A DNA stretch of 64,000 nucleotides, from the NCBI GenBank assembly GCA_919901555.1, contig CAKKPG010000012.1, positions 10,654 through 74,653 on the forward strand. Direction: 5' to 3'. Shown here piece after piece: positions 12,301 to 33,043 of this stretch (the first letter of the stretch is position 1; every line of letters starts with the position of its first letter). Under the pieces are notes generated by a model. The model did not search any database, was not told where the DNA came from, and saw only the letters and a list, made by a program, of their open reading frames with translations. This DNA comes from Nitrospiria bacterium. Its GTDB lineage: Bacteria > Nitrospirota > UBA9217. A program made the position numbers and the translations under genes.

Positions 12301-15300
12301 GTCACCGTCGACATCTGCCGAAGTGATGTCCATCATATAGCTGTTCGGCGAAATATCACTTATTTTTACTTTTGCATTAAACGTATTCGTGCCGTCCGCC
12401 TTGTTCCGGAAATAGTATAATTCGCCTCGGTCACCCGACCCTGTGATGATATCGACAAACCCGTCATTATTGAAGTCGTCGAGAACGATGCCGCGGGTGA
12501 GATCGGTCCACGCGGACAGGTCTTCTATTTGCTTCACAGCGCCGAACGTCCCGTCACCCATATTTTCGACGGTAAATATCCTGCCGATCTCGTCACTAAA
12601 TGCAATAAGCTTTCCGGTCTTCGGCAGCCTCGTATTGACTGAAGGCGCTTTGGGTCCGTGGTCCACAGTATCGAAATAGATCGAGAAGTATCTCACTGAG
12701 CCCTTTGCGGCAACTCCGTCCATAAGCCAGGTGACCCTGGCGTCGGCATCCGACAGGAAGGCCGCCAGTGCCTGCTTTTCTCCTATGAGATCGCCTGCGG
12801 CGTCAAGTTCCATGACTCTGATGGAATTTTTATCAAGTACTTTGTCAGTGAGCCCCAGGTTCTGAAGGGCGGTAGTAAAAGCAATGGTTGTTTCTGCAAG
12901 CACGTCTTTCATGTCACGTGCTGCCGTTACTGTTGCGGGCATCCTGTACGACCATCCCTGATTTCCTGAGAATCTGAGATCGCTAACGGTAAATGTCGCC
13001 GCTGTCGCAACCCGGGCCCCTGACGCATCTTCGATGGAAATATCGCCCGTGCCCGACCATGCGGTTGCGTTATGGTTCTTCACTGTTACGGCAATATTCA
13101 CGTCTGATGATGCGCTATACGCCGTCTTGTCTGCCTCAAGTGTCGATGTTATCCCCGAGGTCTGAATGAACATTGTTTTTGCCGCCGCATTGTTGTCTTC
13201 GCGGGATTCAATGATGGCATTTCCGGGATCGACTGCCACGTATATCGTCTGCTGTCCCGCGAATCCGGTTGTTTTCAGCACACCCTGGACCGCTGCCCTC
13301 TCGCCCAGGGCCACTTGAGGATAGATGAACTGTTCCGTAATCAGAACACCACCGGATGCAGGGTCGCCAAAATAGAAATGCACGGGAATATTCCCGGTTG
13401 CCGCCCCCCGGTTTCGGATCGTTGCCGTGACCGTCACGGTATCGCCTTCTCGTGCCGACGCAGTTGAAAGCGCGATACTCTCATTCGTGATCTCAAGATC
13501 GGGCAGCCCGGGAGGACTCACCGTTATGGTAAAGGACGCGAGGTTGTTGTTCTCGTTCGATTCTGAGATGCTGTTGCCCGGATCAACGGAAACATAGAGC
13601 ACGTTGTCGCCCGACAGTCCGAGCGTGTCGAATGTAAATGCCACGGCTGCCGAACCGCCTGCGCCCACAGTCTGAATAACCTGATTGGTTCCAAGCTGCG
13701 TCCCGCCGGAAGCCGGGTTCCCGCAGTAAAGTCGAACACTCACATTGGAAGCTGCCGCTAAACCCTGATTCCTGACACCTGTCATTATCGGGACGAGGCT
13801 TCCCTCGGTGTACGGCGCAGGAGGAAGTGTGATGTCCGCAGCGGACGTCGTCAGATCCGGCAGCTCGCTTCCGAGGAAAGCGTCGAGGCTTGCCTGGTTG
13901 TCGTCTTCGTTGCATTCGGATACTGTGTTGTCTTTGTCCACCACTGCATAGAAATGGTGCGGCCCCGTGCTCAGGGCTTCGGTCCCGAAGGTGACGTCCT
14001 GGTACTCACCGGGCTGGAGGGCCCTCGTGGTGGGCGCGGCGCCGATGACGACGCCTGTTCCCGGCGCGCCATCATAGAACGTGACTGTTGCGCCTGCCGC
14101 CGCCTCTTTTGCCCCGCCGTTTCCGATCCTCACGGTCAAGGCGATGTAAGAGCCCACTTGTTCGGAACGGAGATGCGACGCCGTGAGGTTCGGGGCAAGG
14201 TATGGGTTGGGGCTCTCACCAACCCGCGCCTGGGTGCGGTAGGTGTTGTTCAGGAGCCAGGACGGGGATTCATACTGCGGTATGGTGCCGTCGTCATTGA
14301 CGTTCGTGACATGATAATTCGGCTGGTTCCAGATTTTGCGGGCGTTCACCCAATCGTCGTTCTTGGCTTTGTAGACCCGCAGGCTCTCGGCGCCATAGTC
14401 GTTCCCTGTCTGGGCCGCATATCCCGATACTACCGCGTCGGCATGGCCGTCGTTGTCTACGTCGGTGATTATGACGTTTTGGAAGCTGCCGCCCTCTCCG
14501 CCGAACTTTTCCTCGTACAGTAGTGTGCCGCTTTTGCCGTCGAATATGCGGAAATATTTCTGGCTGTTGATCAGCACCTCGGGCTTGCCGTCACCGTTCA
14601 GGTCGAATACAGTCGGCGCCGTTCTATCCTGCCATCCCCAGCCCCACCATTGATACGGCACATAATAGGACTGTTTTTTGTTGCCGTGCTTATCCAGAAT
14701 ATGGTAATAATTGACCCCGAGAATACCGATCTCCATCTCGCCGTCACCGTCGAAATCCGCGATAACGGGAGGACAGCCCAGATAACTTTGGGAAACGAGA
14801 GGCTCAAGGCTATTCAGACGCACCGGCCCCCATTTGACCGTGCCGTCATGCTCAAGGAGATACACGCTGCTGTTTGTGCCGTTTTCAGTTACAACGATTT
14901 CAGGATATGCGTCGTCGTCGAAATTGCCGATCGCGGTGGCTCCGCCGTCAAACGAGTTATTCCACCACCGAAGCGTTCCATCGGCATTCCAGACGGCATT
15001 GCCGGCAATGATCTCTGGTCTTCCATCGAGATCGATGTCGGCAACCGTGGACGCATAGGAACTCCAGTTAGTCGCGCCTGTCCCAACCCACGCCGGGTTC
15101 GAGATCGCGTTTGCCCACCGGATGCTTCCATCCGGGTTGATTACGGTCGATCCGGAAGTGATCTCCGGCATGCCGTCCGCATCGATGTCCGCGATAATCG
15201 GCGTCGCGTTCGAACGAATGGTTGGTTCCGGCGCATAGATGGAATGGGAATTGATCCAATCATTGACCTGTTGGCTATTGTCCCACTTTAATGTTCCGTC

Positions 15301-18276
15301 ATGCTCATAGACCAAAATACTGCATCGGGAACTGCTGGGGCAGTATTTAGGGATGACGATCTCCGGGAGACCGTCCTTGTCTATGTCGCCTGTGCTCACA
15401 TATGCATGCTGATCTAATCGGCGATTGCCATCATAGGTCGAAAATATGGTCGCTCCTGTATCGCCCCTGACCGCCCATAATTTTCCATCTCCGTAATAGA
15501 CAAGACTCGAAAATACGAGCGACGGCATGTCTTTATCATCTATCTTTCCATCACCATTGTCGTCCGTGAGGTTGGTTACGAGCACCTGTCGTGGGATCGG
15601 CTGTCCCCTCGTGCTCCACGTCCACTTCCTGACCGGCTCAATGGGATTTGCCGGCCGTTTCTCGCAATCGTCGCAGGAAATTAGGAGGTTGTTGGTTTCG
15701 CTCTGCTCAAGAATTGAGTCTGACGAGTCTATAAGTGCGTAGAGGGGCGAGTGCAGGAACTTGACGCTGCCTGAGAGGGTCACGTTGACCATGCCCGCGC
15801 CTTCGGGCCAGAGAGTGAGCGTGTTCGTGCCGGTCCCGAGCACGTTGTCCAGTCCGGGCGTATAGCTCCCGTCAAGGTCCGTGTCTTCGAACACGAGGAC
15901 GTCGAAGGAGCTGGTTATCTTGTCGTCGCCCTTGTTCTGGAACGTGACGGCGGCCGTGCCGGAAACTGACAGGGCCGAGGGGTCGGTAGTCAGGGCTGAA
16001 AGGTCGATCTTTGTGGGGACAAGGTCAGGCCCGAGGATTTCGCCCGGGGCCTTGATCTTGAGTGAGCGGATCGCCTGGTTGTTGTCTTCATAAAGTTCCG
16101 TTACGACGTTTTCGGTGTCCGCGATCGCGTAAAAACGGTACGTCCATGGCACAGCGGTAAAGGTGTAGGGGAGCGTTGTACTGCCGTCGCCGGCGATGTT
16201 GCTTATTGGGAATGTCTGGAGGAGAGCGCCGCCCTGTGCAGGATCGCCGTCGTAGAGGGCCAAGTTGAAGGCCCCGGTGTCCTTGATGCCGGTATTATGC
16301 GCCATGATGGACAGTACCACCGAATCGCCGTTCACGGGATGGGACGGAGTGAAGGTCAAGTCAGTGGCAGATATGGAAATGTCCACCATGTCGGCCATGA
16401 CGCGGGTGGAGGCACGGTTGTTGGTCTCGTTCGTCTCGATGATTGCGTTCGCCCTATCTAAGACAACATAGATGTCATGAATTCCGCTTGAAATCGTCCA
16501 ATTCGTCGTAATGGTTTCCTCTGCGCCCGCTGCGGTTGAAATAGTCGTCGTGTATATGAGATTTCCGCCAGATGGAGAAGGAGGCCCGTCATATATCTCC
16601 ACAGTAAAGCTATTTGCCGCTTCCAATCCCTCATTCCGGACAGATGCGGATATCTGAACGGTCTCAGTCGCATGGGGCCGTGATGGGGTGAGTGTTATGG
16701 TTCCAGCAACAAGATCAGCCTGCTGCTGCGCTCCGCCTGCCTGAATGGTGACTGTGCCGGTGTTGTTGGTCTCGGAGAGTTCGGTTATTGCGTTCCCGGA
16801 GTCGGCTACGAGGTACAGCATATGCGCCCCATCGCCGGTGAGCGTAACGCCGAAGGTCCCGGTGCGCACCTCGGTCCCATTGAGACCGGAGATGTGGACG
16901 GTCTGTAATAATGTGCCGCCTTGAGCGGGACTGCCATCATAGAGAGCGACGTCGAATCCGGCTGTGGATGATTCACCAATATTGCGGATAGTATAGCTGA
17001 GCGTAAAGGCCGTGCCGGATGCAGGTACATACGTCGAGGGCTTCAAATCCTCGGAGAAGACGGCAATATCAGGCGCTGTGGCGATCCAAATCCGAGTCGA
17101 GGCGATATTGTCCATCTCGTTGGTTTCTGAAATGATATTGTCAGGGTCTACTTTTACGAAGATCGTTTTTCCACCGGTGCCGGTGAAACTCTGCGTGATT
17201 GATACAGGTGCGGATGAGCTGATGGCAAGAGAGGTAATAATCTGATCAGAACCAATCTGAGTTCCACCAGCAGAAGGATCACCGAGATAGAAGCGGACGA
17301 TAATATTTGATGCGCTTTCGAAGCCGGTATTATGAACCGTCGCGGTAATAGTGACAGATTCATTTGCCTGGGGCATAGGCTTTGACAGCGAAATATCACC
17401 CGGGGAGATAGCAAGGTTCGCACGTGCGCTTGCGAGTGCGCGCAATGCGAGCGCAGTCGAATACGGGTCTTGATTCCACGAACCATCGGCGAGCTGAGTT
17501 GTGGTCAGATAATTTATCGCTCCAGGAACAGAGGCAGAAATATTCGCTCCGCTTGCGATAAGAGCATCGAGGGCGAGGGCGGATTCGTATACATTAGACG
17601 GACTTGAACCGAAACCTCCATCCGTGTTCTGCTTTGAGAGCAGATAGGCAACTCCCTTATCAATAGAACTTTGGACGTTGAAGGTGACGTTGTTGTATGA
17701 TGCCAACATCTGGAGCACAGTTGCAGTTATGTAAACATTGCTGACAATATTATCTTTGAATCCCCAGCCTCCATCTGCCCTTTGATTCGCAGTAATATAG
17801 TTTATCGCCTGGAATAGAACGCCATAGTCCGAATAATTTACGGAACGAAGAGCTTGCAGGGCGAGAGTGGTATCCAGAATGCCATCGTCAAAGCCCGCAT
17901 TTATTCCCCAACCGCCAACGGCAGGATCGCGATAATAGAGCAGCACTTCGACTTCAGCGGATGCATCCATACCTGCTCGTTTGAGCGCGGCAATCCGCCG
18001 TGAGAGATAATCCGTTGGCGAAACAGCCTGGCTGCTGAGCCACGTAAGACCCTCAGTATACGTCGAACTCGTTGGCTCAAAGACATAGACAGCATCCAGC
18101 GCAGCGGATGTGGAGTAGTACTCAGTCGTCTCTACAGCGGGCCAATTACCGGTAGTGGTCTGGGAGGAATTGAGCCAGACGAGGCCCGATGATATTTGTG
18201 GAGTTTGGGCGAAGACTGAAAAACTTATGGTCGATAACAGGATAAAAAAAACGAGGCCAAATGTACGCTTTCGCAT
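9358..18276 (-). CDS. Giant secreted multidomain protein: signal peptide, prenyltransferase/squalene-cyclase-like alpha/alpha-toroid repeat domain, CARDB modules, two FG-GAP/VCBS-like propeller-type blocks, and a unique roughly 700-aa C-terminal region
   Basis: 2972 aa. Signal peptide MRKRTFGLVFFILLSTISFSVFA. Residues about 30-300 carry repeated GGWG / DGGFG / DGSWN motifs. At least 8 CARDB-like modules follow (V.ItA.V.N.G...VD..N.I.E.NE.NN). Eight FG-GAP-like D.D.DG..E motifs occur (DIDKDGLPEIVI, DIDADGMPEI, DIDLDGRPEI, DFDGDGEMEI, DLNGDGKPEV, DVDNDGHADAVV). A second block of five follows (DFNNDGFVDI, DVDGDGNKDF, DVTGDGKLDL, DFDEDGKLDL, DFNSDGHLDI). Confidence 0.85.
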   Translation of the reverse strand: MRKRTFGLVFFILLSTISFSVFAQTPQISSGLVWLNSSQTTTGNWPAVETTEYYSTSAALDAVYVFEPTSSTYTEGLTWLSSQAVSPTDYLSRRIAALKRAGMDASAEVEVLLYYRDPAVGGWGINAGFDDGILDTTLALQALRSVNYSDYGVLFQAINYITANQRADGGWGFKDNIVSNVYITATVLQMLASYNNVTFNVQSSIDKGVAYLLSKQNTDGGFGSSPSNVYESALALDALIASGANISASVPGAINYLTTTQLADGSWNQDPYSTALALRALASARANLAISPGDISLSKPMPQANESVTITATVHNTGFESASNIIVRFYLGDPSAGGTQIGSDQIITSLAISSSAPVSITQSFTGTGGKTIFVKVDPDNIISETNEMDNIASTRIWIATAPDIAVFSEDLKPSTYVPASGTAFTLSYTIRNIGESSTAGFDVALYDGSPAQGGTLLQTVHISGLNGTEVRTGTFGVTLTGDGAHMLYLVADSGNAITELSETNNTGTVTIQAGGAQQQADLVAGTITLTPSRPHATETVQISASVRNEGLEAANSFTVEIYDGPPSPSGGNLIYTTTISTAAGAEETITTNWTISSGIHDIYVVLDRANAIIETNETNNRASTRVMADMVDISISATDLTFTPSHPVNGDSVVLSIMAHNTGIKDTGAFNLALYDGDPAQGGALLQTFPISNIAGDGSTTLPYTFTAVPWTYRFYAIADTENVVTELYEDNNQAIRSLKIKAPGEILGPDLVPTKIDLSALTTDPSALSVSGTAAVTFQNKGDDKITSSFDVLVFEDTDLDGSYTPGLDNVLGTGTNTLTLWPEGAGMVNVTLSGSVKFLHSPLYALIDSSDSILEQSETNNLLISCDDCEKRPANPIEPVRKWTWSTRGQPIPRQVLVTNLTDDNGDGKIDDKDMPSLVFSSLVYYGDGKLWAVRGDTGATIFSTYDGNRRLDQHAYVSTGDIDKDGLPEIVIPKYCPSSSRCSILVYEHDGTLKWDNSQQVNDWINSHSIYAPEPTIRSNATPIIADIDADGMPEITSGSTVINPDGSIRWANAISNPAWVGTGATNWSSYASTVADIDLDGRPEIIAGNAVWNADGTLRWWNNSFDGGATAIGNFDDDAYPEIVVTENGTNSSVYLLEHDGTVKWGPVRLNSLEPLVSQSYLGCPPVIADFDGDGEMEIGILGVNYYHILDKHGNKKQSYYVPYQWWGWGWQDRTAPTVFDLNGDGKPEVLINSQKYFRIFDGKSGTLLYEEKFGGEGGSFQNVIITDVDNDGHADAVVSGYAAQTGNDYGAESLRVYKAKNDDWVNARKIWNQPNYHVTNVNDDGTIPQYESPSWLLNNTYRTQARVGESPNPYLAPNLTASHLRSEQVGSYIALTVRIGNGGAKEAAAGATVTFYDGAPGTGVVIGAAPTTRALQPGEYQDVTFGTEALSTGPHHFYAVVDKDNTVSECNEDDNQASLDAFLGSELPDLTTSAADITLPPAPYTEGSLVPIMTGVRNQGLAAASNVSVRLYCGNPASGGTQLGTNQVIQTVGAGGSAAVAFTFDTLGLSGDNVLYVSVDPGNSISESNENNNLASFTITVSPPGLPDLEITNESIALSTASAREGDTVTVTATIRNRGAATGNIPVHFYFGDPASGGVLITEQFIYPQVALGERAAVQGVLKTTGFAGQQTIYVAVDPGNAIIESREDNNAAAKTMFIQTSGITSTLEADKTAYSASSDVNIAVTVKNHNATAWSGTGDISIEDASGARVATAATFTVSDLRFSGNQGWSYRMPATVTAARDMKDVLAETTIAFTTALQNLGLTDKVLDKNSIRVMELDAAGDLIGEKQALAAFLSDADARVTWLMDGVAAKGSVRYFSIYFDTVDHGPKAPSVNTRLPKTGKLIAFSDEIGRIFTVENMGDGTFGAVKQIEDLSAWTDLTRGIVLDDFNNDGFVDIITGSGDRGELYYFRNKADGTNTFNAKVKISDISPNSYMMDITSADVDGDGNKDFVASVNLNAWYLFKGKGDGTFTKTTLTPPAGSVALRSKMIADVTGDGKLDLIISSCCGGGLYLYQGNGDGTFVSPVQIGTSGTDPYGGAIGDFDEDGKLDLIFNTGASGETNFYKGKGGGQFDLPVAIPSLNTHSHAAFDAGDFNSDGHLDIIAVTYDKLALEFYPGIGDGTFGPKTTIAKIASAGLGISASPALAEIRFAAGSPERVPESTFQFTWNTGTTAPGIYQVHATLSQGAGPVTENRASFEILPDTRAGAKVVTDKISYNPNETAAITSTISSQSGNYIFENLTAKITISRQDTAGGIQVYTETKTLTTLMPGASFTFKSYWNTAANPKGTYTVTLEVISGGAVLSASTTSFELSSTTATGAGLAGALTAAPNPVYQGRDETITYTVTNSGNEDIAGLTAILVIADPDTGEAKAAVRSQESEVRRGETITNTQTITTSSLAPKNYLAVLQVQTAQMTRPKTLTSATFEVKPGIEVTKRIPDVTNLLVWINEKCEKDSVGRRLTQSDADGEKQKMEGEEGSRELTPIDANVNPFATENAEDTEKNKFSRELTRMDANDADAKKIPPTPLYERGARGDLPEAECVRVDLLEKALREAVTDYRIVYDKKDFQAEMRNPYYTDFMILGDQHHLEDHFDEELREQVYAGKGLILSRYRHEHIERELFGMKVDGRLPEGNYPVDILKSDLGIQGSFQSFGRVMKIKEADPETAIGWITATTHKEPVQYPAIIKREYGNGKALYFAFDLVAGSENTIGFTALVKHSLEFIHRPPDTTAFHPNQLVPVEIQAKSLGAASDLRLTETYPAGVKPYDSTTKAWITDNPWVINIHLEPGETKTILSYVLTPDAEGAYTLSTEVSYVENGTYVPYQNLDAVVTAGKDSAAMTADLLSAIDAFSAAGKDRKKLDHAAKYVRKVRDRTASSEEDIVKNIHDLLKAVNSLFQITSADASGVRLMLDGILEFREAEWYWMEYGPE

Positions 18277-18342
18277 AATTCCTCCAAAGACCTTGTTCCG
18301 CTGTCCATTTGTACGACCTGATATTCTTTTCAGGCGGTATGA

Positions 18343-18789
18343 CTACTCCCAATATTTTTTCTTAAAGTCACTCATAATATAAATTTCTTTCACCAGGAAT
18401 CCCATGAACACAAAGAATGATATAAGCCATACAGAATTAACAATAAAATTTGTTACGAGCAAAGCTGACAGAAATAAGGATTCTATTATGCAACTTTTCT
18501 TATTAAAAGTTTTAGCGAGCACACTTTTTATCTCTTCATAATTCTTCACTAACTGAATTACCACAATGAAGAAAAGCAGGGCTATCAAAATAATATCAAT
18601 ATAAAAAAATAACTTATTTCGCCAAAGTGCACTTCTGTAAATAATCAAAATAATTAAAACAAGAAAACCACTAAATAGTGCGTTAATAGCAAGCTTCAGA
18701 CGGTCTTTTGCAAATCTTCTAACTTTTAAATTGTGCATTATTAAATAAAGTGTTGTGTTTATAAATAACAACAGCGATTCATTATTCAT
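18343..18789 (-). CDS. Small AT-rich 4-TM membrane protein (cassette 1)
   Basis: Start MNNESLLLF at 18789 with a GGAGG SD. Very hydrophobic (I/L/F-rich). GC content is far below the flanking genes. It sits between the transglutaminase-like gene and the giant gene. Confidence 0.6.
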   Translation of the reverse strand: MNNESLLLFINTTLYLIMHNLKVRRFAKDRLKLAINALFSGFLVLIILIIYRSALWRNKLFFYIDIILIALLFFIVVIQLVKNYEEIKSVLAKTFNKKSCIIESLFLSALLVTNFIVNSVWLISFFVFMGFLVKEIYIMSDFKKKYWE

Positions 18790-18812
18790 AGTATCGACCT
18801 CCTTCACAAATT

Positions 18813-21800
18813 TTAATAAGCCAATCCATTGCCCAGGCAATTACTTTGAGTTGCGGAGCCAGCAAAATACATTCTTATCGAATTAATCAGTATTTGAACG
18901 GGTCGAAATGTAATAAAAACGATTAGAATATTTCGCACAGTGATTGCAGCCAAAATATTTAATGCTATAGCAGCAACACAGTCTTGTGCGGTACTACTTG
19001 CCTCAGTCATGAGCCAATTCAAGAAAGCCAGATAAATTGGCAAAAGCAACGATAGAATAGCAAATGCAATGGGTCCTGCCAATATTGATAAAGCTAACAG
19101 AAGTAGACCAACACCGATGAGAAGCAACGCGCCATTTTCACCCGAACTAATCATATACGCTCCTGCCCCTGTAACTGGATCAGTAATAATATAACCACAA
19201 AGTAGGCGGTCATTGTAGCTGACATTCGTTCTTGGAACAGTAACTTCTTTTCCTGCATTTACCGCGTTCGCAATAACGCTTTTCACATCTTCACTGACCT
19301 GCAATTGCGGAAGAATAATATTTATATTCGTTTGGTTGACAGTGTAGATGGAGATTCCTTGATCACTTGCTATTTGCAACGCTTTTACTGCTGAGATACC
19401 CTGCACCACATCGCTCGGCGTCGAATACATCCGTTCTGGGATCAGATGCTCCAAGGCTGATGACATACTGCCAGATGTGAGCATATATTTTCTGACATTA
19501 TCTGTGTTTCCGTTTTTACTGAATACGGCCTGCATGATTCTGTCCACATCCATCATCATACCCCCAAAACCAGTCCACGTCGGAATTCCGAATACGGCCT
19601 GAACAGCAAGCTGCGTCGAACACAGTCCGATAGAGGGAACTCGATACCGTATTGCATCTTGTGCTTTCGCGGCAATCTCATCACTTAAATCAAGCTCATT
19701 GAAATAGGTTGTAATTGTCATAAATAAGAGATCACCAACGACATCATCTTTCGTGATCCCGCCGTAAGTCTGAGTAACTATTTTTTCTTTCGTGGTTTCA
19801 AGCTTCGCTTTGAGAGCGTTAAGTCGATCCCCTCCAACTCGTCCTGTGTCCAGACCGATCCCGTAATATTCACCCGCCTGAATCATGTTATCGATATTGC
19901 TCAATCCTATTCCCGGCTCATTAAGCGACATGGTGAACGACTGCGCACTGCCCATCGTGCCAGGAGCGCCGGTTGCCACAATTTGTCCGTCTATACGTAG
20001 TTCAGACTTGAGATTGATAAGATACGCCGGGAATGATGACGGCAGTTCACTTGGCTGGATGGGTGTGCCATCTGGATGAGGCTGAGGTAAAAATGATTCT
20101 ATAACAGCTTGATCGTTGGCAGTTGCTGGTGAGAATGACAATGTGATCTTTTTGCCCGCAAGCTCCGGGAGGCTAGCACTATAGAAAAGCCCTGTACCTG
20201 CGCCTGTGGAATCGGGAATACTGAAGCTTATGGTCGCGCGCAGGTTGTCAGGAACTTGAGCAAACTGAGAGCCGATCTGCACGGTCTTGTACGGAAGTGT
20301 TTCGGGTAATATGCCGAACTCCTGCTTGATAATCTCCTTCTTGCCGACCACATCCCCTACTGTCGCATTGGGATGGTTCTGCTGAATGTAGTTCTGCACC
20401 TGCGTCTGGTAGTCCTGCATAGTCTGCTGGATCAGGGTGGAGTTCACGTTCGTTACATACCCTTCTGTTTCATTGATCGTCGAAGTCGATTGAAGCTGAT
20501 TGGCAAAGGTTTGTGCGTCAAAGGGCACGGCTGACTGGATGTCAATTCCCTGCGTATAGGCATACTGCTTGAATGAAGGATCAAGCTGGATCCAGGTATC
20601 GGGCTGTCGATGAACGGCCCCGCGGCTCGGGATATAATCGATGAACGCGCTGACCCATACGTGTTCCATCCTCACGTATTTATAGACGCTGCCGCTGGTT
20701 TTGAGAAGCGTAACGGGAACGCCGTTGGTGGCAAGAATCGTTCCGACCATCATCGGATTGGTCACATCGCCGACCCAGTTCATTGCTTTTTCGATGGGGA
20801 TATCGACGGTGCCGTAGGCGTAGCGTGCGGAGATGCCGGACGTGCGAAGCAAAGCGATGAGCAAACTGGCAGTGTCGGTGTCGTTGCAAATCCTTGACTG
20901 AAGGCACTGGTCCGCCCCTTGGATGCTGCCATAGGTGGGTGCATATTCGATATTATTGCGGACCCATTCGTAGATTCTGAGCGGTGAGTTGCCGAGTTCG
21001 GCGGCTTTGGCGCGGATTTCGGGCGTGAATTGGACTTCGGGAGTTTCGGATAGGTCAGCGGCGGTCGGAATATCCGCTGTCTGCTGCGCGAGAAGGATCG
21101 GTGCTGAATCGGCGAAGGCTACCTGCAGAATCGCCCCCTCCCCCCCTCCCTCTCCCACAAGGGGGCGAGGGAGTTGAAGCGGAACATCACTCGCAATTTC
21201 GTTGAATGCGAGGAGAACGGGTTTCGATTGCGGCTTGCTCGCCAGGAGATCAGGCATCAACCGGCTGTCGGAGATATTACGACTGCTGTGTGACTTTTGC
21301 TTTCGAAAATCGCGCTCGAACTCTTCCTTTTTCAAGCGCGGTGCGACCGTTTTGGTCGCTTTCCGGACGCGAAACGGCAGATTCTCCGGATCGAGCCGTT
21401 GCACGAGCTTTTTCGGCCGGGTCTTGTCTAGGTGCAAACGTACTTTCTCTATCTTCGCCTTTCGCTCCGCCGGGGTCCTGGCCGCGTCTATGTCGTTTAA
21501 CTCATCCCGGAGTTGCGTGTAGTTGGCGGTATAGTTTTTAACGAACGCCGTATGCCTATCGCGTATTTCGCGGGGCAAGCCAGCGATCTTCTTCTCCGTG
21601 GCGGCGAATTCCGCCTGGAGCTGCTCATTCAAATCAGCGAGTTGGGTTTTCCTGTTCCCGACCTCCCGGATTTCCGCGGAAGCATCCTCGCCCTTTGCAT
21701 TCTTCTCGCTTGCCTTGCCGACCTTCTCGCGTATTGCCTCAAGAACACCTTCAAATTTTTCTTCGGGCTTTTGCTCTCTGCTTACTGGCTTTCCGGGCGC

Positions 21801-21935
21801 CTGTTCCACGGACGCTGCTTTCTGTTTCTCTGCGGCAAATGCAGCGGGTATCTGGAATAAAGGGCCAAATGACCATAGAAAACAGGTGAGAACAGTCCAT
21901 ACCGTGACTCGGAAGCTGAAAGAATAGGCGCGCAT
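18813..21935 (-). CDS. Membrane-anchored transglutaminase-like (papain-fold Cys-His-Asp) domain protein, cassette 1
   Basis: 1040 aa. N-terminal signal/anchor, K/E-rich coiled coil, then the core: LRIYEWVRNNIEY...GADQCLQSRICNDTDTASLLIALLRTSGISARYAYG (Cys), HVWVSAFIDY (His) and WIQLDPS (Asp). The C-terminus has several TM helices. GGAGAG SD before the ATG. Confidence 0.8.
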   Translation of the reverse strand: MRAYSFSFRVTVWTVLTCFLWSFGPLFQIPAAFAAEKQKAASVEQAPGKPVSREQKPEEKFEGVLEAIREKVGKASEKNAKGEDASAEIREVGNRKTQLADLNEQLQAEFAATEKKIAGLPREIRDRHTAFVKNYTANYTQLRDELNDIDAARTPAERKAKIEKVRLHLDKTRPKKLVQRLDPENLPFRVRKATKTVAPRLKKEEFERDFRKQKSHSSRNISDSRLMPDLLASKPQSKPVLLAFNEIASDVPLQLPRPLVGEGGGEGAILQVAFADSAPILLAQQTADIPTAADLSETPEVQFTPEIRAKAAELGNSPLRIYEWVRNNIEYAPTYGSIQGADQCLQSRICNDTDTASLLIALLRTSGISARYAYGTVDIPIEKAMNWVGDVTNPMMVGTILATNGVPVTLLKTSGSVYKYVRMEHVWVSAFIDYIPSRGAVHRQPDTWIQLDPSFKQYAYTQGIDIQSAVPFDAQTFANQLQSTSTINETEGYVTNVNSTLIQQTMQDYQTQVQNYIQQNHPNATVGDVVGKKEIIKQEFGILPETLPYKTVQIGSQFAQVPDNLRATISFSIPDSTGAGTGLFYSASLPELAGKKITLSFSPATANDQAVIESFLPQPHPDGTPIQPSELPSSFPAYLINLKSELRIDGQIVATGAPGTMGSAQSFTMSLNEPGIGLSNIDNMIQAGEYYGIGLDTGRVGGDRLNALKAKLETTKEKIVTQTYGGITKDDVVGDLLFMTITTYFNELDLSDEIAAKAQDAIRYRVPSIGLCSTQLAVQAVFGIPTWTGFGGMMMDVDRIMQAVFSKNGNTDNVRKYMLTSGSMSSALEHLIPERMYSTPSDVVQGISAVKALQIASDQGISIYTVNQTNINIILPQLQVSEDVKSVIANAVNAGKEVTVPRTNVSYNDRLLCGYIITDPVTGAGAYMISSGENGALLLIGVGLLLLALSILAGPIAFAILSLLLPIYLAFLNWLMTEASSTAQDCVAAIALNILAAITVRNILIVFITFRPVQILINSIRMYFAGSATQSNCLGNGLAY

Positions 21936-22630: not shown

Positions 22631-22697
22631 GCGGCTCGAATGAATGATGACGCCGCTCGGCGCAAACCCGGACGCGAAGAAAAGGCATTGGATTGCG

Positions 22698-23573
22698 CTA
22701 TGTCTCCCCTCGCTCGCGGAACAGCCGCGACGCTCTTGCCCGCAGCGTGCATACGGGGCAGCCTCCTCTTCTGTATCTATCGATGATTCTTTCTCGATAT
22801 TCATGCCCTTTCCGGCATTTCCACCATACGAGGCGCGTGGAAAATGGGGAGACGTCCTTCGGCGTCCAGGTCCCGTTCTTCGCAGAATGCCACTCGCGGG
22901 ACAGCCACGGCGCTTTGGCCTCAAGGCAGTTCTCCTCGGCCGGCCTTCGCCCTGAACAGTAAGGGCATCCGTCTCCTTCGCTTCTGTTCTCTACAACAGA
23001 TTGCCATTCATGACCTTTTCGGCATATCCACCAGACTTTTTTGTTGGATTTAGGGAGAACATCCTTCGGCGTCAAAGGAGCATTCTTCGTATGATGCCAC
23101 TCGCGGGCAAGCTTTGGATCTACGGCCTGAAGGCAGGTATCAGCGGTTGCTTGTCGTCCTGAGCAACAAGGGCACCCGTAACCGGAGGTCCTTCTATATA
23201 AGGGGGCCGGCCACTCATGCCCTTTCTTGCACACCCACCAGACTTTCCTGCCGGAGCCGGCAGTGACATCTTTCGTCGTCAGAGGAGCATTTTTCGTCGG
23301 ATGCCACTCCCTGGCCAGCTTCGGATTTACGGTTTTTAGACAATTGTCTTTATTCACTCTTCGTCCAGAGCAATATGGGCAGCCTTCGTCTCGGCCTCTG
23401 TCCGAGATGCGAGCATCCCACTCATGACCTTTATCGCAGAGCCACCAGACTTTGATATGCGCGCCAGGGGTCACATCCTTCGGCGTAAGCGGTGCGTTCT
23501 TCGTGGGGTGCCACTGGCGTGCGAGCGCCCTGTTCACTTTAGCGAGTGTAGGTTTCACGTTCTGTTTTATCAT
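22698..23573 (-). CDS. Protein of four tandem treble-clef zinc-ribbon repeats (DUF4379-like)
   Basis: 291 aa. Four repeats of about 63 aa: LAREWHPTKNAPLTPKDV...KVWW.C.KGHEW.......GCPYCSGRR. Its ATG overlaps the stop of the upstream 527-aa ORF (ATGA). Confidence 0.7.
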   Translation of the reverse strand: MIKQNVKPTLAKVNRALARQWHPTKNAPLTPKDVTPGAHIKVWWLCDKGHEWDARISDRGRDEGCPYCSGRRVNKDNCLKTVNPKLAREWHPTKNAPLTTKDVTAGSGRKVWWVCKKGHEWPAPLYRRTSGYGCPCCSGRQATADTCLQAVDPKLAREWHHTKNAPLTPKDVLPKSNKKVWWICRKGHEWQSVVENRSEGDGCPYCSGRRPAEENCLEAKAPWLSREWHSAKNGTWTPKDVSPFSTRLVWWKCRKGHEYRERIIDRYRRGGCPVCTLRARASRLFRERGET

Positions 23574-25096
23574 GCAATGTTACTGGCTTTGGTGAGTTCG
23601 GTTATCTGATTGCCTGAATCTGCAACCAGATAAAGAGTATGCGCACCGTCTCCCCTGAGGGTCACGCCGATTGTCCCGGTGCGGACCTCCGTGCCCGTAA
23701 GGCCGGAAATATTTCCGGTCTGGAGGAGCGTCCCGCCAGAGGCGGGGTCCCCGTCGTAGAGAGATATGGTAAATGCCCCTGTCTCGGACTCGCCCAGGTT
23801 TCTGACCTTGTATTCCAGAGTGAAGGCAGTTCCGGCACTCGGAACATAGGTCGAAGGCTTGAGGTCTTCGGAGTAAACGGCAATATCAGGTTCGGTTGCT
23901 ACCCAGATGCGGGATGAGGATTTGTTGTCACTCTCTGATGTTTCGGAGATGGTATTGTCCGGGTCTGCGACAACGAAGATCGTCTTGCCGCCGGTGCCGG
24001 TAAAGGATTGAGAGATGGATGCTTGAGACGATGAATTGACGGATAAAGAAGGAAGGATTTGATCGACACCAATTTGCATGCCGCCGGCAGAGGGATCTCC
24101 AAGATAAAACCGAACAACAATATCCGATGCACTGTCATAGCCTGAATTGCGAACGTTTGCGGTGAGCGTTATCGTCTCCCCTTCTCGCGGCATGGGATTG
24201 GTGAACGATACCGATGCTACTGAAAGGTTTGGTCGTACACTCGCCAGCGCACGAAGAGCCAAAGCGGTCGAGTAAGGATCATCATTCCAACTGCCATTAG
24301 CTGATTGACTTGTAGTCAGATAATTTACCGTTGCAGGAACGACCGCTGAAACATTCGATCCGCTTGCTATCAGGGCATCAAGCGCCAGAGCTGATTCGTA
24401 AACTTTTGACGGCGAACTTCCAAAACCACCATCGGCATTCTGCTTTGAAAGCAGATAAGCGACAGCCTTGTCTATTGAGCTTTGGACATTGAAGGTAACA
24501 TTATTGTATGACGCTAACATTTGAAGTATAGTAGCAGTCAAGTAAACATTGCTGACCGCGTCATCCTTGAATCCCCAGCCGCCATCATTTTTTTGATTCG
24601 AAGTAAGATAATTTATCGCTTGGAAGAGAACGCCAAAGTCGGAATAATTTGCTGAACGAAGAGCTTGCAAGGCAAGGGTGGTATCTAAAATGCCGTCGTC
24701 AAAACCCTTATGTGTCCCCCAGCCGCCAACAACAAGATCGCGATAATAGAGCAGCACTTCGACTTCAGCGGATGCATCCATACCTGCTCGTTTGAGCGCG
24801 GCAATCCGCCGTGAGAGATAATCCGTTGGCGAAACAGCCTGGCTGCTGAGCCACGTAAGACCCTCAGTATACGTCGAACTCGTTGGCTCAAAGACATAGA
24901 CAGCATCCAGCGCAGCGGATGTGGAGTAGTACTCAGTCGTCTCTACAGCGGGCCAATTACCGGTAGTGGTCTGGGCGGAATTGAGCCACCTGAGGCCTGT
25001 CGGAATTTGCGGTATTTGAGCGGATGCAAAAGAGGTAAATAAAAACATTAAGAATGAACCAATCAGAAAGCTCAAGCGACTTGCTCTTTTGAACAT
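23570..25096 (-). CDS. Truncated paralog of the giant protein (signal peptide, alpha/alpha-toroid domain and about 2.5 CARDB modules); possibly a decayed copy
   Basis: Start MFKRASRLSFLIG at 25096 with a GGAGGAGG SD. About 80 aa of the mature N-terminus are identical to the giant protein. It ends inside a CARDB module (LYLVADSGNQITELTKASNIA-stop) where the giant protein continues. Confidence 0.6.
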   Translation of the reverse strand: MFKRASRLSFLIGSFLMFLFTSFASAQIPQIPTGLRWLNSAQTTTGNWPAVETTEYYSTSAALDAVYVFEPTSSTYTEGLTWLSSQAVSPTDYLSRRIAALKRAGMDASAEVEVLLYYRDLVVGGWGTHKGFDDGILDTTLALQALRSANYSDFGVLFQAINYLTSNQKNDGGWGFKDDAVSNVYLTATILQMLASYNNVTFNVQSSIDKAVAYLLSKQNADGGFGSSPSKVYESALALDALIASGSNVSAVVPATVNYLTTSQSANGSWNDDPYSTALALRALASVRPNLSVASVSFTNPMPREGETITLTANVRNSGYDSASDIVVRFYLGDPSAGGMQIGVDQILPSLSVNSSSQASISQSFTGTGGKTIFVVADPDNTISETSESDNKSSSRIWVATEPDIAVYSEDLKPSTYVPSAGTAFTLEYKVRNLGESETGAFTISLYDGDPASGGTLLQTGNISGLTGTEVRTGTIGVTLRGDGAHTLYLVADSGNQITELTKASNIA

Positions 25097-25160
25097 AGCT
25101 CCTCCTCCGACACCGATGATCCCAGCATGCATGATAACCACAGGCGCAAGCATAGAAAAA

Positions 25161-25484
25161 TTATCGTTTATAAAAAATAAACAAAAAAAGTAAAATCAGA
25201 ACAAAAAATATTATTGAGTATAAAATAACCTCTGCAGGTTTATAGCCCTGTTGTAACTTCAGAATAAGGGGATGCCGTTTTTCTTTAAGCAGAGCGAGAA
25301 GAATAGCGGCCAATGCGATAACGGATAATATAACAATTGCAAAAGGATCGTTCCGAGATTCAAAAATTCCTAAGCCAACAAAGAAAAGTGAAAAAAAGAA
25401 AATAATTATATTTTTGTTTGCTCGCAAGTAGCGAAAAAACAGGTACAAAGCAATCGATAGATTCAGAAATGCTATTTTATTCAT
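25161..25484 (-). CDS. Small AT-rich multi-TM membrane protein (cassette 2, third)
   Basis: 107 aa, hydrophobic. Overlaps the upstream ORF by 8 nt (translational coupling). Confidence 0.5.
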   Translation of the reverse strand: MNKIAFLNLSIALYLFFRYLRANKNIIIFFFSLFFVGLGIFESRNDPFAIVILSVIALAAILLALLKEKRHPLILKLQQGYKPAEVILYSIIFFVLILLFLFIFYKR

Positions 25485-25884
25485 TTTTCTGATCCCCCAT
25501 TATCTTATTGTCTAATCGTTCGTTTATAGTTTTCAAAAAAGACTCAAGTATCAATACAGCAGCACAAACTATCCAGACTTCGAATAAAACAAAAGGGAAA
25601 ATACTTTTAGGGAAATTTTTTAATAAGTCGTCTGGTAATAACCAGAGAGAGAGCATTGCAATGCTTACTATGATACAAGAATAAATTAATTCTTTCTTTA
25701 TTTGTCGGATTTTAGTGAGTGCTGTGCTGTTGCTAGCGATTATTGACTTAAAATCTTTTGTCTTATACATGAGTGAAGACGATAGACTATTAATCAACTT
25801 TTGCCTTTGATATTTACTAACCCTGACGGCAAAAATTGAAAAAAGGATTACTATTACTCCACTAAGCAATACGAATATCTTCAT
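25477..25884 (-). CDS. Small AT-rich multi-TM membrane protein (cassette 2, second)
   Basis: 135 aa with 3-4 TM segments. AT-rich. Confidence 0.5.
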   Translation of the reverse strand: MKIFVLLSGVIVILFSIFAVRVSKYQRQKLINSLSSSLMYKTKDFKSIIASNSTALTKIRQIKKELIYSCIIVSIAMLSLWLLPDDLLKNFPKSIFPFVLFEVWIVCAAVLILESFLKTINERLDNKIMGDQKNE

Positions 25885-25926: not shown

Positions 25927-26349
25927 TTAATAGCTTTTCCGTGTTGCAAACCTGAAGTGTTGCTTGAAGCTAAAGTCTTCTACTCTTAATAATCTGTAGA
26001 AATAAATTATCGACGCCAATATGCTGAATGCCCCTGCGATAATAATTAAGAAAGCAAATACATTATCGATATCACGAAGTGAGATAAAGAGATTCCCGTC
26101 AAAAGTCGCAAATATTTTTGCAACTATAAAGTGCGCTAAGCTATTAAGCTCCATAAATATAAATGCAAATAACCAAAAACGATGCTTAATTAAAACGGCA
26201 AAAAAGAAAAAAATTAAAAGCGAAAATAAATAATCGCTCATATCATATTTTTTTAGTGGTACAACACTAAAAATTAATAGGAAGTTCCAAACGAATGCAT
26301 AGAAATTAACCAAAATTAAAACCTTTAAAATAACTCTCTCTTTCATCAT
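25927..26349 (-). CDS. Small AT-rich multi-TM membrane protein (cassette 2, first)
   Basis: 140 aa, 4 TM. Lies immediately downstream of the transglutaminase-like gene. Confidence 0.5.
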   Translation of the reverse strand: MMKERVILKVLILVNFYAFVWNFLLIFSVVPLKKYDMSDYLFSLLIFFFFAVLIKHRFWLFAFIFMELNSLAHFIVAKIFATFDGNLFISLRDIDNVFAFLIIIAGAFSILASIIYFYRLLRVEDFSFKQHFRFATRKSY

Positions 26350-26379
26350 AAACCTCCTTTTCTATTGCCTTTCCACTTC

Positions 26380-32969: not shown

Positions 32970-33043
32970 AGCTCCTCCGGATATCTCAATGAATATCTTC
33001 AATGCAGAGAGACAAAACATACTACCTCAAACGTCACTCGATT

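What the first reader, a model, noticed from the sequence alone, without database searches (positions are those of the whole stretch)
18343..18789. AT-rich islands encoding small multi-TM proteins embedded in each GC-rich cassette
The small membrane-protein genes are conspicuously AT-rich (visibly under 40% GC) inside DNA of about 60% GC. They lie at 18343-18789, at 25161-26349 (three genes, two of them overlapping by 8 nt) and at 33044-33544. The proteins are I/L/F/K/N-rich. Long ORFs are improbable by chance in AT-rich DNA. Together with good SD sequences, this argues they are real genes. Their position between the TGase-like enzyme and its partner, and their sequence divergence between cassettes, is reminiscent of immunity or adaptor genes in polymorphic loci.
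Basis: partly seen in the sequence, partly recalled or inferred. Interest (0 to 1): 0.6.

Follow-up and report, generated by a model that had tools for sequence, protein, structure and literature searches.

The report
Immunity-like genes of a polymorphic toxin family
The five AT-rich small membrane-protein genes are real, and each most likely protects the cell from the variable, swappable C-terminal tail of the transglutaminase-like exported protein encoded just upstream; I found no description of this toxin/immunity family, which is common in Nitrospirota and Geobacter relatives.

Summary
Five minus-strand genes (18343-18789; 25161-25484, 25477-25884, 25927-26349; 33044-33544) have 29-36% GC, against 47-55% in their neighbours. 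They have 2-5 hydrophobic segments, mostly good ribosome-binding sites, and are longer than shuffled sequence gives.

The AT-rich zone also includes the last 100-130 codons of each upstream transglutaminase-like (TGase) gene. In 66 related loci, conservation ends at a motif, GYIIxDPxTGAGAYxISGG. After it come unrelated tails and unrelated AT-rich downstream genes.

Tails and downstream genes change together (Fisher p = 2e-10 among pairs with at least 70% core identity). Hydrophobic tails pair with small multi-TM proteins. Soluble tails, several with NlpC/P60 or CHAP cell-wall hydrolase domains, pair with exported beta-propeller proteins. Two lineages carry orphan 3' gene fragments with their own tail and small gene; in one, 965 bp of 99% identity ends at the motif.

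Homologues of sm1 (18343-18789) lie behind TG1-type tails on independent contigs.

Best reading (about 0.7): polymorphic toxin C-terminal domains with cognate immunity genes, on a new carrier family. That family has at least 1176 members and is usually followed by a giant toroid/CARDB/FG-GAP protein. Toxicity and the delivery route are untested.

The parts
18343..18789 (-). sm1: 148-aa protein with about 4-5 TM segments, GC 0.295. Proposed immunity protein for the TG1 tail.
   Evidence: ORF and GGAGG ribosome-binding site. 0 of 2000 shuffles reach its length. Six homologues at 25-41% identity. Two of these families lie directly after TGase C-termini with TG1-type tails.
25927..26349 (-). sm2a: 140-aa multi-TM protein, GC 0.30. 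Proposed cognate immunity protein for the TG2 tail.
   Evidence: 36% and 27% identical to the first gene after the TGase in L034 and L033. The TGase tails in those two loci are 41% and 37% identical to the TG2 tail.
25477..25884 (-). sm2b: 135-aa protein with about 3 TM segments, GC 0.31. Extra immunity-like gene in the array. No homologue was found in the fetched loci; it was not searched against the large protein databases.
   Evidence: ORF with a weak ribosome-binding site. One gene caller annotated a shorter 97-aa version. Three same-strand ORFs of at least 100 codons never occurred in 2000 shuffles.
25161..25484 (-). sm2c: 107-aa protein with 3 TM segments, GC 0.31. Overlaps sm2b by 8 nt. 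Extra (orphan-type) immunity-like gene.
   Evidence: 38% identical over its full length to the second gene after the TGase in L037.
33044..33544 (-). sm3: 166-aa protein with two TM helices and a PH-like soluble domain, GC 0.36. Proposed immunity protein for the TG3 tail.
   Evidence: Homologues at 54% and 40% identity. AF2 model has pLDDT 76; all top Foldseek matches are PH-like domains. The two homologues are not next to TGase genes.
18813..19115 (-). Variable C-terminal tail of TG1 (residues 941-1040) with 3 hydrophobic helices. Proposed membrane-acting effector domain.
   Evidence: Conservation falls from about 0.75 to below 0.3 after residue 940. The tail is 41-51% identical to tails that precede sm1 homologues.
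26380..26706 (-). Variable C-terminal tail of TG2 (108 aa).
   Evidence: Unrelated to the TG1 and TG3 tails although the cores are 58% and 48% identical to TG1. Related to the tails in L034 and L033.
33562..33954 (-). Variable C-terminal tail of TG3 (130 aa).
   Evidence: No related tail was found in the collected loci.
18813..21935 (-). TG1: 1040-aa exported transglutaminase-like carrier. It has a signal-peptide-like N-terminus, a coiled coil, a TGase core with C350/H425/D452, a conserved beta-rich region, and the junction motif GYIITDPVTGAGAYMISSG.
   Evidence: Pfam Transglut_core, E = 8.9e-14. Alignments. AF2 model has pLDDT 79. Only the TGase core matches solved structures.
26380..29478 (-). 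TG2: 1032-aa paralogue of the carrier.
33562..36813 (-). TG3: 1083-aa paralogue of the carrier.
9358..18276 (-). TED1: 2972-aa exported giant protein with an alpha/alpha-toroid domain (TED/prenyltransferase-like, no CxEQ motif), 8 CARDB stretches and 9 FG-GAP-like stretches. Conserved downstream partner of unknown role.
   Evidence: Pfam. No thioester motif. A TED-like gene lies downstream in 26 of 34 loci.
23570..25153 (-). TED2: 527-aa short version of the partner.
30213..33020 (-). TED3: 935-aa shorter version of the partner.

Best explanation
**What the genes are.** Each small AT-rich gene is proposed to be the immunity gene of a polymorphic toxin module. The other half of the module is the variable C-terminal tail of the transglutaminase-like (TGase) protein encoded immediately upstream.

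**The carrier.** The TGase protein is about 1000 aa and is exported by a Sec-type signal peptide (inferred from the sequence). Its conserved body ends at the motif GYIIxDPxTGAGAYxISGG. What follows is a swappable effector domain.

**The tails.** In this window all three tails are hydrophobic, 100-130 aa, with helices predicted to insert into a membrane. By inference they damage the inner membrane. The cognate small multi-TM protein (sm1, sm2a, sm3) would bind or block the tail inside the producer's membrane. In sister loci the same position carries cell-wall hydrolase domains (NlpC/P60, CHAP), paired with exported beta-propeller proteins.

**How modules change.** New tail-plus-immunity cassettes appear to be installed by homologous recombination. 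Recombination would use the conserved 3' third of the TGase gene, which orphan fragments carry along. That would explain why the low-GC zone starts inside the TGase gene and is deepest over the tail and the small genes.

**Extra genes.** sm2b and sm2c are read as accumulated extra immunity genes.

**Shown:** the genes are real; the boundary is sharp; tail and downstream gene co-vary; orphan modules exist; hydrolase tails exist; the position is conserved.

**Inferred:** toxicity, protection, release of the tail (possibly by the papain-like TGase domain near the GG residues of the motif), the route to a target cell, and any role of the giant TED/CARDB/FG-GAP protein encoded downstream.
For: 1. 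**Sharp end of conservation.** Column conservation in a 73-sequence alignment drops from 0.69-0.78 to 0.31, then 0.02, after residue 940. The three window paralogues are 48-58% identical up to the motif and unalignable after it.
2. **Family-wide GC trough.** GC is 0.36 at +300 to +800 nt after the motif, against about 0.50 on either side, in 66 non-redundant loci.
3. **Two matched classes.** TM-rich tails of 100-145 aa are followed by small multi-TM ORFs. Soluble tails of 165-255 aa are followed by ORFs of 300-380 aa with a single N-terminal hydrophobic segment.
4. **Co-variation.**
   - Of 1378 locus pairs, 44 share a tail type, 32 share a downstream protein and 19 share both; about 1 is expected (Fisher p = 1e-22).
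   - Among the 62 pairs with at least 70% identity in the last 320 core residues, 15 share tails and 12 share downstream proteins; all 12 are among the 15 (p = 2e-10).
   - Many pairs with 75-98% core identity have unrelated tails and unrelated downstream genes.
5. **Independent check for sm1.** Exhaustive phmmer found six homologues. P0004 and P0005 lie directly after TGase C-termini whose tails are 41-51% identical to the TG1 tail.
6. **Orphan modules.**
   - In L089-L091 the sm1 homologue is followed by a TGase 3' fragment (TG1 residues 726-975). In L089, the only contig long enough, another small TM gene follows it.
   - In L042, 965 bp at 99% identity link the main gene to an orphan fragment. 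Identity ends exactly at ...DPDTGAGAYMIS, and GC falls from 0.57 to 0.25 there.
7. **Recognisable toxin domains at the same position.** NLPC_P60 in 9 and CHAP in 5 of 63 tails; some pass Pfam cut-offs. The genes after them encode NHL/PD40/SBBP beta-propellers and DUF4424/YARHG proteins.
8. **Foreign-looking codon use.** GC3 of the small genes is 0.29-0.39 against 0.49-0.63 in the neighbours, so the AT-richness is not only a matter of amino-acid composition.
Against: - No toxin family matches the three window tails, and no family matches the small proteins, in Pfam, NCBIfam, PADLOC, PHROGs or PDB sequences.
- No secretion machinery beyond a presumed Sec signal is encoded nearby. The flanks are housekeeping, chemotaxis and an IS66 element. 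A C-terminal TM tail on a Sec substrate would normally stay in the producer's own inner membrane, so how it would reach another cell is unexplained.
- Geotalea daltonii FRC-32 has an AT-rich tail, but no gene lies between the TGase gene and the TED giant.
- The TG1-type tails in L019, L020 and L041 (32-36% identical) are followed by small TM proteins with no detectable relation to the sm1 family (hhalign probability 0.2%).
- 25 tail-similar pairs lack a detectable similarity between their downstream proteins.
- The two sm3 homologues are not next to TGase genes.
- sm2b has no homologue in the fetched loci, the only place it was compared.
- The loci are related to one another, so the pair statistics are not fully independent.
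Confidence: 0.7

Rival explanations
1. Membrane anchor plus assembly partner. The hydrophobic tail only anchors the exported TGase protein in the inner membrane. The small multi-TM protein is a structural or adaptor subunit of a TGase/TED envelope complex. Diversity would reflect weak constraint on TM segments.
For: - The tails are predicted TM helices at the C-terminus of a signal-peptide protein.
- The small genes sit between two conserved genes of one operon.
- No toxin domain is recognisable in the window tails.
- G. daltonii manages without a gene in that position.
Against: - Drift does not produce unrelated tails next to cores that are 75-98% identical, nor a break exactly at one motif.
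- It does not explain orphan 3' fragments with their own small gene.
- It does not explain arrays of several unrelated small genes.
- It does not explain the alternative NlpC/P60 or CHAP tails with exported beta-propeller partners at the same position.
- It does not explain the low GC3.
Confidence: 0.13
2. Self-identity pair rather than toxin and antidote. The variable hydrophobic tail and the variable small membrane protein form a matching 'barcode'. Their binding or non-binding would signal kin or non-kin, in the manner recalled for Proteus IdsD/IdsE.
For: - Both partners are membrane proteins that vary together.
- The operon encodes a giant adhesin-like protein.
- No toxin fold is recognisable in the window tails.
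Against: - Sister loci carry bona fide lytic enzyme domains at the same position, which points to damage rather than signalling.
- Orphan modules and immunity-like arrays are typical of toxin systems.
- The resemblance to Ids is from memory and was not tested here.
Confidence: 0.08
3. Passenger genes in a recombination hotspot. The AT-rich ORFs are unrelated horizontally acquired cargo, or defence or phage-derived genes, that happen to insert after the TGase gene. They would have no functional link to its tail.
For: - The composition looks foreign.
- sm3 homologues occur in other contexts.
- An IS66 element and a TA-like gene pair lie nearby.
Against: - Tail and downstream gene are replaced together.
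- sm1 homologues re-occur behind TG1-type tails on independent contigs.
- There are no PADLOC or PHROGs matches.
- The genes are tightly packed, with ribosome-binding sites, inside an operon.
Confidence: 0.05
4. Chance ORFs in AT-rich spacer DNA, not genes.
For: sm2b has no homologue in the fetched loci, and its start codon is uncertain. An antisense 190-aa ORF overlaps sm3.
Against: - Shuffle tests.
- Strong T2 periodicity.
- Ribosome-binding sites.
- Full-length homologues at 25-54% identity for four of the five genes.
Confidence: 0.02

Closest known systems
Polymorphic toxin systems in general (Zhang et al. 2012, PMC3482391)
   Same: A conserved exported carrier with hypervariable C-terminal domains. 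The immunity gene lies immediately downstream and changes with the tail. Orphan tail-immunity cassettes share a stretch of conserved upstream sequence. The variable part is AT-rich. NlpC/P60-type peptidase toxins are among the tails.
   Different: The carrier is a family I could not find described. It has a TGase-like core, a large conserved beta-rich region without structural matches, and its own junction motif DPxTGxGAY. It has no RHS, filamentous haemagglutinin, PAAR, LXG or other known trafficking domain. The immunity slot lies between the carrier gene and a conserved giant TED/CARDB/FG-GAP gene.
'Inactive transglutaminase' N-terminal domains of Sec-exported RHS polymorphic toxins (Zhang et al. 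2012, section 19)
   Same: A signal peptide is followed by a transglutaminase-fold domain in a protein with a variable C-terminal toxin. In 20 of 73 homologues here the putative catalytic Cys is replaced by Gly.
   Different: The three window proteins, and most homologues, keep Cys, His and Asp. There are no RHS repeats. The TGase domain lies about 300 residues in, after a coiled coil, not directly after the signal peptide.
Neisseria MafB/MafI (Jamet et al. 2015, PMC4287609)
   Same: Signal-peptide-dependent export of a polymorphic toxin in a diderm, with no dedicated secretion system in the locus. The immunity gene is immediately downstream. Several modules occur per genome.
   Different: There is no DUF1020/MafB N-terminal domain. 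The carrier here is about three times larger. MafB tails studied so far are nucleases acting in the cytoplasm, whereas the tails here are membrane helices or cell-wall hydrolases acting in the envelope.
Burkholderia-type CDI loci (cdiA-cdiI-cdiB order; from my own knowledge, not tested here)
   Same: The immunity gene is sandwiched between the toxin carrier and a conserved large partner gene. A short conserved motif marks the start of the variable tail.
   Different: No TPS domain, VENN or NxxLYN motif, or Omp85-type transporter was detected. The partner is a toroid/CARDB/FG-GAP protein, not a beta-barrel.
Bacterial PH (bPH_2, YdbS/YdbT-like) membrane proteins, for sm3 only
   Same: Two N-terminal TM helices followed by a seven-stranded PH-like sandwich and a C-terminal helix. 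From memory, B. subtilis ydbST contributes to resistance against a peptide antimicrobial.
   Different: There is no match to the Pfam bPH_2 model at E <= 0.01. The similarity is at the level of fold only.
VARTIG modules of Thermococcales (Makarova et al. 2021, PMC8416519)
   Same: A large exported protein with a hypervariable C-terminus, followed by variable small genes that mostly encode TM proteins. CARDB-type Ig domains are present. Function is unknown, and the organisation resembles a polymorphic toxin system.
   Different: VARTIG is archaeal. Its variable part is an Ig domain, not a TM or enzyme tail. There is no TGase domain and no sequence relationship.

Membership tests
Polymorphic toxin system (sensu Zhang et al. 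2012) | Conserved N-terminal and central carrier with unrelated C-terminal domains after a sharp junction | tested here: met
   Conservation collapses after residue 940. Pairs with 75-98% core identity have unrelated tails.
Polymorphic toxin system (sensu Zhang et al. 2012) | Gene immediately downstream co-varies with the C-terminal domain (candidate immunity gene) | tested here: met
   (p = 2e-10 within pairs of at least 70% core identity). sm1 homologues lie behind TG1-type tails. sm2a homologues lie behind TG2-type tails.
Polymorphic toxin system (sensu Zhang et al. 2012) | Orphan C-terminal fragments with their own downstream gene, sharing conserved upstream sequence | tested here: met
   Found in related loci L042 and L089-L091. 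None is present in this window.
Polymorphic toxin system (sensu Zhang et al. 2012) | C-terminal domains belong to toxin families | tested here: inconclusive
   NLPC_P60 occurs in 9 and CHAP in 5 of 63 tails in sister loci. The three window tails match no family.
Polymorphic toxin system (sensu Zhang et al. 2012) | Tail is toxic and is neutralised specifically by the neighbouring gene product | not testable with these tools
   Requires expression and competition experiments.
Polymorphic toxin system (sensu Zhang et al. 2012) | Recognised trafficking mode to a target cell | tested here: inconclusive
   The N-terminus looks like a Sec signal peptide, from reading the sequence. No T5SS, T6SS or T7SS genes lie in the window flanks, and the carrier has no known trafficking domain.
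Inactive-transglutaminase/RHS polymorphic toxins | Loss of the Cys-His-Asp triad | tested here: not met
   C350, H425 and D452 are present in all three window proteins. The Cys is Gly in 20 of 73 homologues.
Inactive-transglutaminase/RHS polymorphic toxins | Array of RHS repeats after the TGase domain | tested here: not met
   Pfam finds no RHS match in TG1-TG3.
MafB/MafI | DUF1020 (MafB N-terminal) domain | tested here: not met
   Pfam finds only Transglut_core.
Contact-dependent inhibition (CdiA/CdiI/CdiB) | TPS secretion domain, haemagglutinin repeats, and a CdiB transporter in the locus | tested here: not met
   No such Pfam hits in the TG or TED proteins or in the flanks.
   No Pfam hit for any small protein at E <= 0.01.
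   True for sm3 only. AF2 model has pLDDT 76. All top Foldseek PDB matches are PH-like domains, best E = 2e-4.
   No Pfam or NCBIfam hit.
Thioester-containing proteins (complement/A2M TED), for the downstream partner | CxEQ thioester motif in the toroid domain | tested here: not met
   TED1-3 contain no CxEQ. Pfam TED_complement hits are partial and overlap the SQHop_cyclase_C and Prenyltrans hits.
Known anti-phage defence systems | Match to PADLOC models | tested here: not met
   No hits for the small proteins, TG1, TED2, TED3 or the zinc-finger protein.

The most novel reading that the evidence does not exclude
The TGase-like carriers and the giant toroid/CARDB/FG-GAP proteins would together form a previously unrecognised envelope system for antagonism or kin discrimination between cells in Nitrospirota and Desulfuromonadota. 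It would depend on Sec but on no known dedicated secretion system. A papain-fold TGase domain would release or cross-link a swappable membrane-acting or cell-wall-lytic tail. The adhesin-like giant would mediate contact or passage across the outer membrane. The small AT-rich genes would be its immunity repertoire.
Probability: 0.35. Interest if true: 0.75.

Novelty: new variant of a known kind. Interest (0 to 1): 0.6.

Why it matters
Polymorphic toxin systems shape competition and kin recognition in bacterial communities. Almost all studied examples come from Proteobacteria, Firmicutes and Bacteroidota, and they ride on known secretion systems.

This family has at least 1176 members. It occurs in Nitrospirota and in Geobacter-type bacteria, which matter in groundwater, sediments and electroactive biofilms. 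All members are currently annotated only as 'transglutaminase domain protein' or 'hypothetical'.

If the reading is right:
- it gives hundreds of orphan small membrane genes a function;
- it supplies a junction motif (DPxTGxGAY) that can be used to mine new envelope-acting toxins and their immunity proteins;
- it poses a clear open question: how does a Sec-exported protein with a membrane-helix tail reach a neighbouring cell, and what does the conserved giant partner contribute?

Tried and rejected
- **Family searches for the small proteins and the three tails.** Pfam, NCBIfam, PADLOC and PHROGs gave nothing meaningful. PDB sequence searches with profiles of the sm1 family and of the TGase family gave nothing.
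- **Word-indexed search for sm1.** It found only sm1 itself. The exhaustive search was needed to find homologues.
- **T6SS effector locus.** My first guess, from the gene sizes. Rejected: the flanks are riboflavin, purine and nusB genes, OmpA, chemotaxis genes and an IS66 element.
- **Thioester chemistry in the partner.** Rejected because there is no CxEQ motif.
- **Context of the sm3 homologues.** One lies after a gene whose product looks like the C-terminus of DNA polymerase I (my reading of the alignment). The other lies after an unknown soluble protein. Neither informs function.
- **Remote link between the sm1 family and the small proteins after the TG1-like tails of L019, L020 and L041.** None was detected.
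- **Promoter and terminator scan of 18000-37500.** Counts equalled the shuffled expectation, so it says nothing about internal promoters.
- **VARTIG.** Considered as a relative, but it is only an analogy.
Full report
**1. Source and layout**

The window matches a groundwater metagenome contig (Hainich H41). NCBI names its proteins as from a Nitrospirota MAG.

All relevant genes are on the minus strand and form three tandem cassettes. In the direction of transcription they are:

| Cassette | TGase gene | Small gene(s) | Partner |
|---|---|---|---|
| 3 | TG3, 36813-33562 | sm3, 33544-33044 | TED3, 33020-30213 |
| 2 | TG2, 29478-26380 | sm2a 26349-25927, sm2b 25884-25477, sm2c 25484-25161 | TED2, 25153-23570, then a DUF4379 zinc-finger gene |
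| 1 | TG1, 21935-18813 | sm1, 18789-18343 | TED1, 18276-9358 |

- The TG proteins (1032-1083 aa) carry a Pfam Transglut_core domain.
- The TED proteins carry an alpha/alpha-toroid domain, with overlapping hits to SQHop_cyclase_C, Prenyltrans and TED_complement. It is followed by CARDB repeats and, in TED1, FG-GAP repeats.

**2. The observation**

The five small genes have GC 0.295-0.358 and GC3 0.29-0.39. Their neighbours have GC 0.47-0.55 and GC3 0.49-0.63. The AT-richness is therefore present at synonymous sites too, not only through I/L/F/K/N-rich protein composition (45-60% against 26-28%).

Evidence that they are genes:
- Ribosome-binding sites are strong for sm1, sm2a and sm3, and weaker for sm2b and sm2c.
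- Dinucleotide shuffles of each island reached the observed stop-free length 0, 3 and 0 times in 2000. Three runs of at least 100 codons on one strand never occurred.
- T at codon position 2 is 0.44-0.54 in four of the genes, the signature of hydrophobic proteins.
- A simple hydropathy scan gives about 2-5 TM segments per protein.
- The five proteins are not similar to each other.

The background GC is nearer 50-55% than 60%. The low-GC zone also reaches into the TGase genes: GC3 drops from residue 570-660 onward.

**3. The missing half: a variable tail on the TGase protein**

The three TG paralogues align at 48-58% identity up to the motif GYII.DP.TGAGAYMISGG (TG1 residues about 914-935). After it they are unalignable.

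A search with TG1 returned at least 1176 relatives with E <= 1e-10. In a 73-sequence alignment, conservation is 0.69-0.78 until residue 940 and then falls to 0.31, 0.21, 0.13 and 0.02.

The window tails are 100-130 aa and hydrophobic. TG1's is modelled as a helical hairpin bundle at low confidence.

**4. Related loci**

Scans of genome and metagenome collections gave 82 loci from Nitrospirota, Geobacter, Geotalea, Citrifermentans, Geomonas, Desulfuromonadaceae and Syntrophaceae. From these I took 66 non-redundant TGase C-termini.

*Composition.* Aligned on the motif, mean GC is about 0.50 upstream, 0.42 over the first 300 nt of the tail, 0.36 from +300 to +800 nt, and back to 0.49 by +2 kb. 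The AT-rich slot is therefore a property of the whole family.

*Two classes*:
- Tails of 100-145 aa with 2-5 hydrophobic helices are followed by small multi-TM ORFs, often several.
- Tails of 165-255 aa without TM helices are followed by ORFs of 300-380 aa with one N-terminal hydrophobic segment (signal-peptide or lipoprotein-like).

*Domains in the soluble tails.* Pfam finds NLPC_P60 in 9 and CHAP in 5 of 63 tails. There is also a weak SLT hit and a weak ADP-ribosyltransferase hit. The genes after these tails encode NHL, PD40 or SBBP beta-propellers, or DUF4424/YARHG proteins.

**5. Co-variation of tail and downstream gene**

- Among 1378 locus pairs, 44 have similar tails, 32 have similar downstream proteins and 19 have both. 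About 1 is expected (Fisher p = 1e-22).
- To control for relatedness I used only the 62 pairs whose last 320 core residues are at least 70% identical. Of these, 15 share tails and 12 share downstream proteins, and all 12 fall within the 15 (p = 2e-10).
- Many pairs with 75-98% core identity have unrelated tails and unrelated downstream genes.

For the window genes specifically:
- **sm1.** It had no hit in the word-indexed search. Exhaustive phmmer found six homologues at 25-41% identity. P0004 and P0005 lie on independent metagenome contigs, directly after TGase C-termini whose tails are 41-51% identical to the TG1 tail through to the last residues.
- **sm2a.** It is 36% and 27% identical to the first gene after the TGase in L034 and L033, whose tails are 41% and 37% identical to the TG2 tail.
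- **sm2c.** It matches the second gene after the TGase in L037 at 38% identity. This fits an accumulated extra immunity gene.
- **sm3.** It has two homologues at 54% and 40% identity, on 1.4-kb contigs without a TGase gene.
- **sm2b.** It has no homologue among the fetched loci. It was not searched against the large protein databases.

**6. Orphan modules**

- In L089-L091 the sm1 homologue is followed by a 300-aa ORF that aligns to TG1 residues 726-975, that is, a 3' fragment with a new tail. In L089, the only contig long enough, a further small TM ORF follows.
- In L042 the full TGase gene and its small gene are followed by a 500-aa fragment sharing 965 bp at 99.07% identity with the main gene. 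Identity stops exactly at ...DPDTGAGAYMIS. The two tails are unrelated, and GC falls from 0.57 to 0.23-0.28 at that point.

This is the arrangement known from Rhs and CDI loci (established knowledge; PMC3482391). The conserved stretch carried by orphan fragments starts at TG1 residues 606 and 726 (possibly also 671, in L006, which lies at a contig end). That coincides with the part of the window TGase genes where GC3 is already depressed. The exchangeable cassette therefore seems to be the 3' third of the TGase gene plus the small gene or genes.

**7. Mechanism**

*Shown:* the module structure above.

*Inferred:*
- The carrier is exported. Its N-terminus reads as a signal peptide with an AxA site.
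- The hydrophobic tails act on the membrane and the hydrolase tails on the cell wall.
- The neighbouring protein neutralises the tail in the same compartment: multi-TM proteins for membrane tails, exported propellers for periplasmic enzymes.
- The TGase domain keeps Cys350, His425 and Asp452 in the window proteins, but Cys is Gly in 20 of 73 relatives. Catalysis therefore cannot be essential throughout the family. Cleavage of the tail near the GG residues of the motif is speculation.
- sm3 is modelled as two TM helices plus a PH-like sandwich (pLDDT 76). All top structural matches are PH-like domains.

**8. The partner gene**

A TED-like gene lies within 5 kb downstream, on the same strand, in 26 of 34 loci with enough sequence. 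It lacks the CxEQ thioester motif. Its role is unknown. The order carrier, immunity, large partner recalls cdiA-cdiI-cdiB in Burkholderia (from my own knowledge).

**9. Caveats**

- No toxin family matches the window tails.
- No delivery route is evident. The flanks encode housekeeping and chemotaxis genes and an IS66 transposase.
- Geotalea daltonii FRC-32 has an AT-rich (0.36), largely non-hydrophobic tail, with only 55 nt before the TED gene.
- Tails 32-36% identical to TG1's in L019, L020 and L041 are followed by small TM proteins unrelated to the sm1 family.
- Structure searches did not explain the conserved region 455-935.

**10. Comparison with the literature**

Full-text searches found no description of this family. 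Absence from this library is not proof that it is undescribed.

The nearest published concepts:
- Polymorphic toxin systems in general, including the 'inactive transglutaminase' N-terminal domain of some Sec-exported RHS toxins (PMC3482391). This differs from the present family in the triad, the position of the domain and the RHS repeats.
- MafB/MafI of Neisseria (PMC4287609), which shows the same logic of signal-peptide export but has an unrelated carrier.
- VARTIG of Thermococcales (PMC8416519), which is only an analogy.

**Verdict**

The system is best filed as a new variant (a new carrier family) of polymorphic toxin systems. Toxicity, specificity and delivery remain to be tested.

Noticed in passing
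window 22277-22630 (+) and 29831-30163 (+): Two XRE-type helix-turn-helix genes (Pfam HTH_3, E = 8e-14 and 9e-16). They lie in AT-rich intergenic zones (GC about 0.35-0.39) and are oriented divergently from TG1 and TG2. They may be cassette regulators.
   Followed up: partly
window 36832-37191 (-) and 37194-37436 (-): A DUF5615 (PIN-like) gene and a DUF433 gene lie immediately upstream of TG3. They look like a toxin-antitoxin pair.
   Followed up: no
window 22698-23573 (-): A 291-aa protein with four DUF4379 treble-clef zinc-finger repeats. Its start overlaps the stop of the truncated TED2 gene. Its relation to the cassette is unknown.
   Followed up: no
window 23570-25153 and 30213-33020 (-): TED2 (527 aa) and TED3 (935 aa) are much shorter than TED1 (2972 aa). 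Related loci also often carry short TED versions of 150-520 aa. These may be truncated copies within tandem arrays.
   Followed up: partly
window 32952-33524 (+): A 190-aa antisense ORF (TTG start) overlaps sm3. It is probably spurious, because sm3 has full-length homologues.
   Followed up: partly
window 43106-44413 (-): An IS66-family transposase lies about 6 kb from the cassettes.
   Followed up: no
L092 (Geotalea daltonii FRC-32, CP001390.1) 10001-21736: In this cultured strain the TGase gene has an AT-rich (0.36), largely non-hydrophobic tail. A 2901-aa TED-like gene follows after only 55 nt, with no small gene in between. This is an exception to the pattern.
   Followed up: partly
L042 9650-13700: A 965-bp direct repeat at 99% identity links the main TGase gene to an orphan 3' fragment. 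Identity ends exactly at the DPDTGAGAYMIS motif, and GC falls from 0.57 to about 0.25 there.
   Followed up: yes
L021 9896-18166 and L067 8001-16406: Two relatives are fused giants (2756 and 2801 aa) in which about 1870 further residues follow the TGase core instead of a short tail. This is a different architecture and I did not examine it.
   Followed up: no
TG1 residues 455-935 (window 19131-20573, minus strand): A large, confidently modelled (pLDDT about 90), highly conserved region of mixed strands and helices has no informative match among solved structures. It may be a new domain.
   Followed up: partly
L086 3-812: The closest sm3 homologue (54% identity) lies downstream of a gene whose product reads like the C-terminus of DNA polymerase I (my reading of the alignment). 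This family of small proteins therefore also occurs away from TGase loci.
   Followed up: partly
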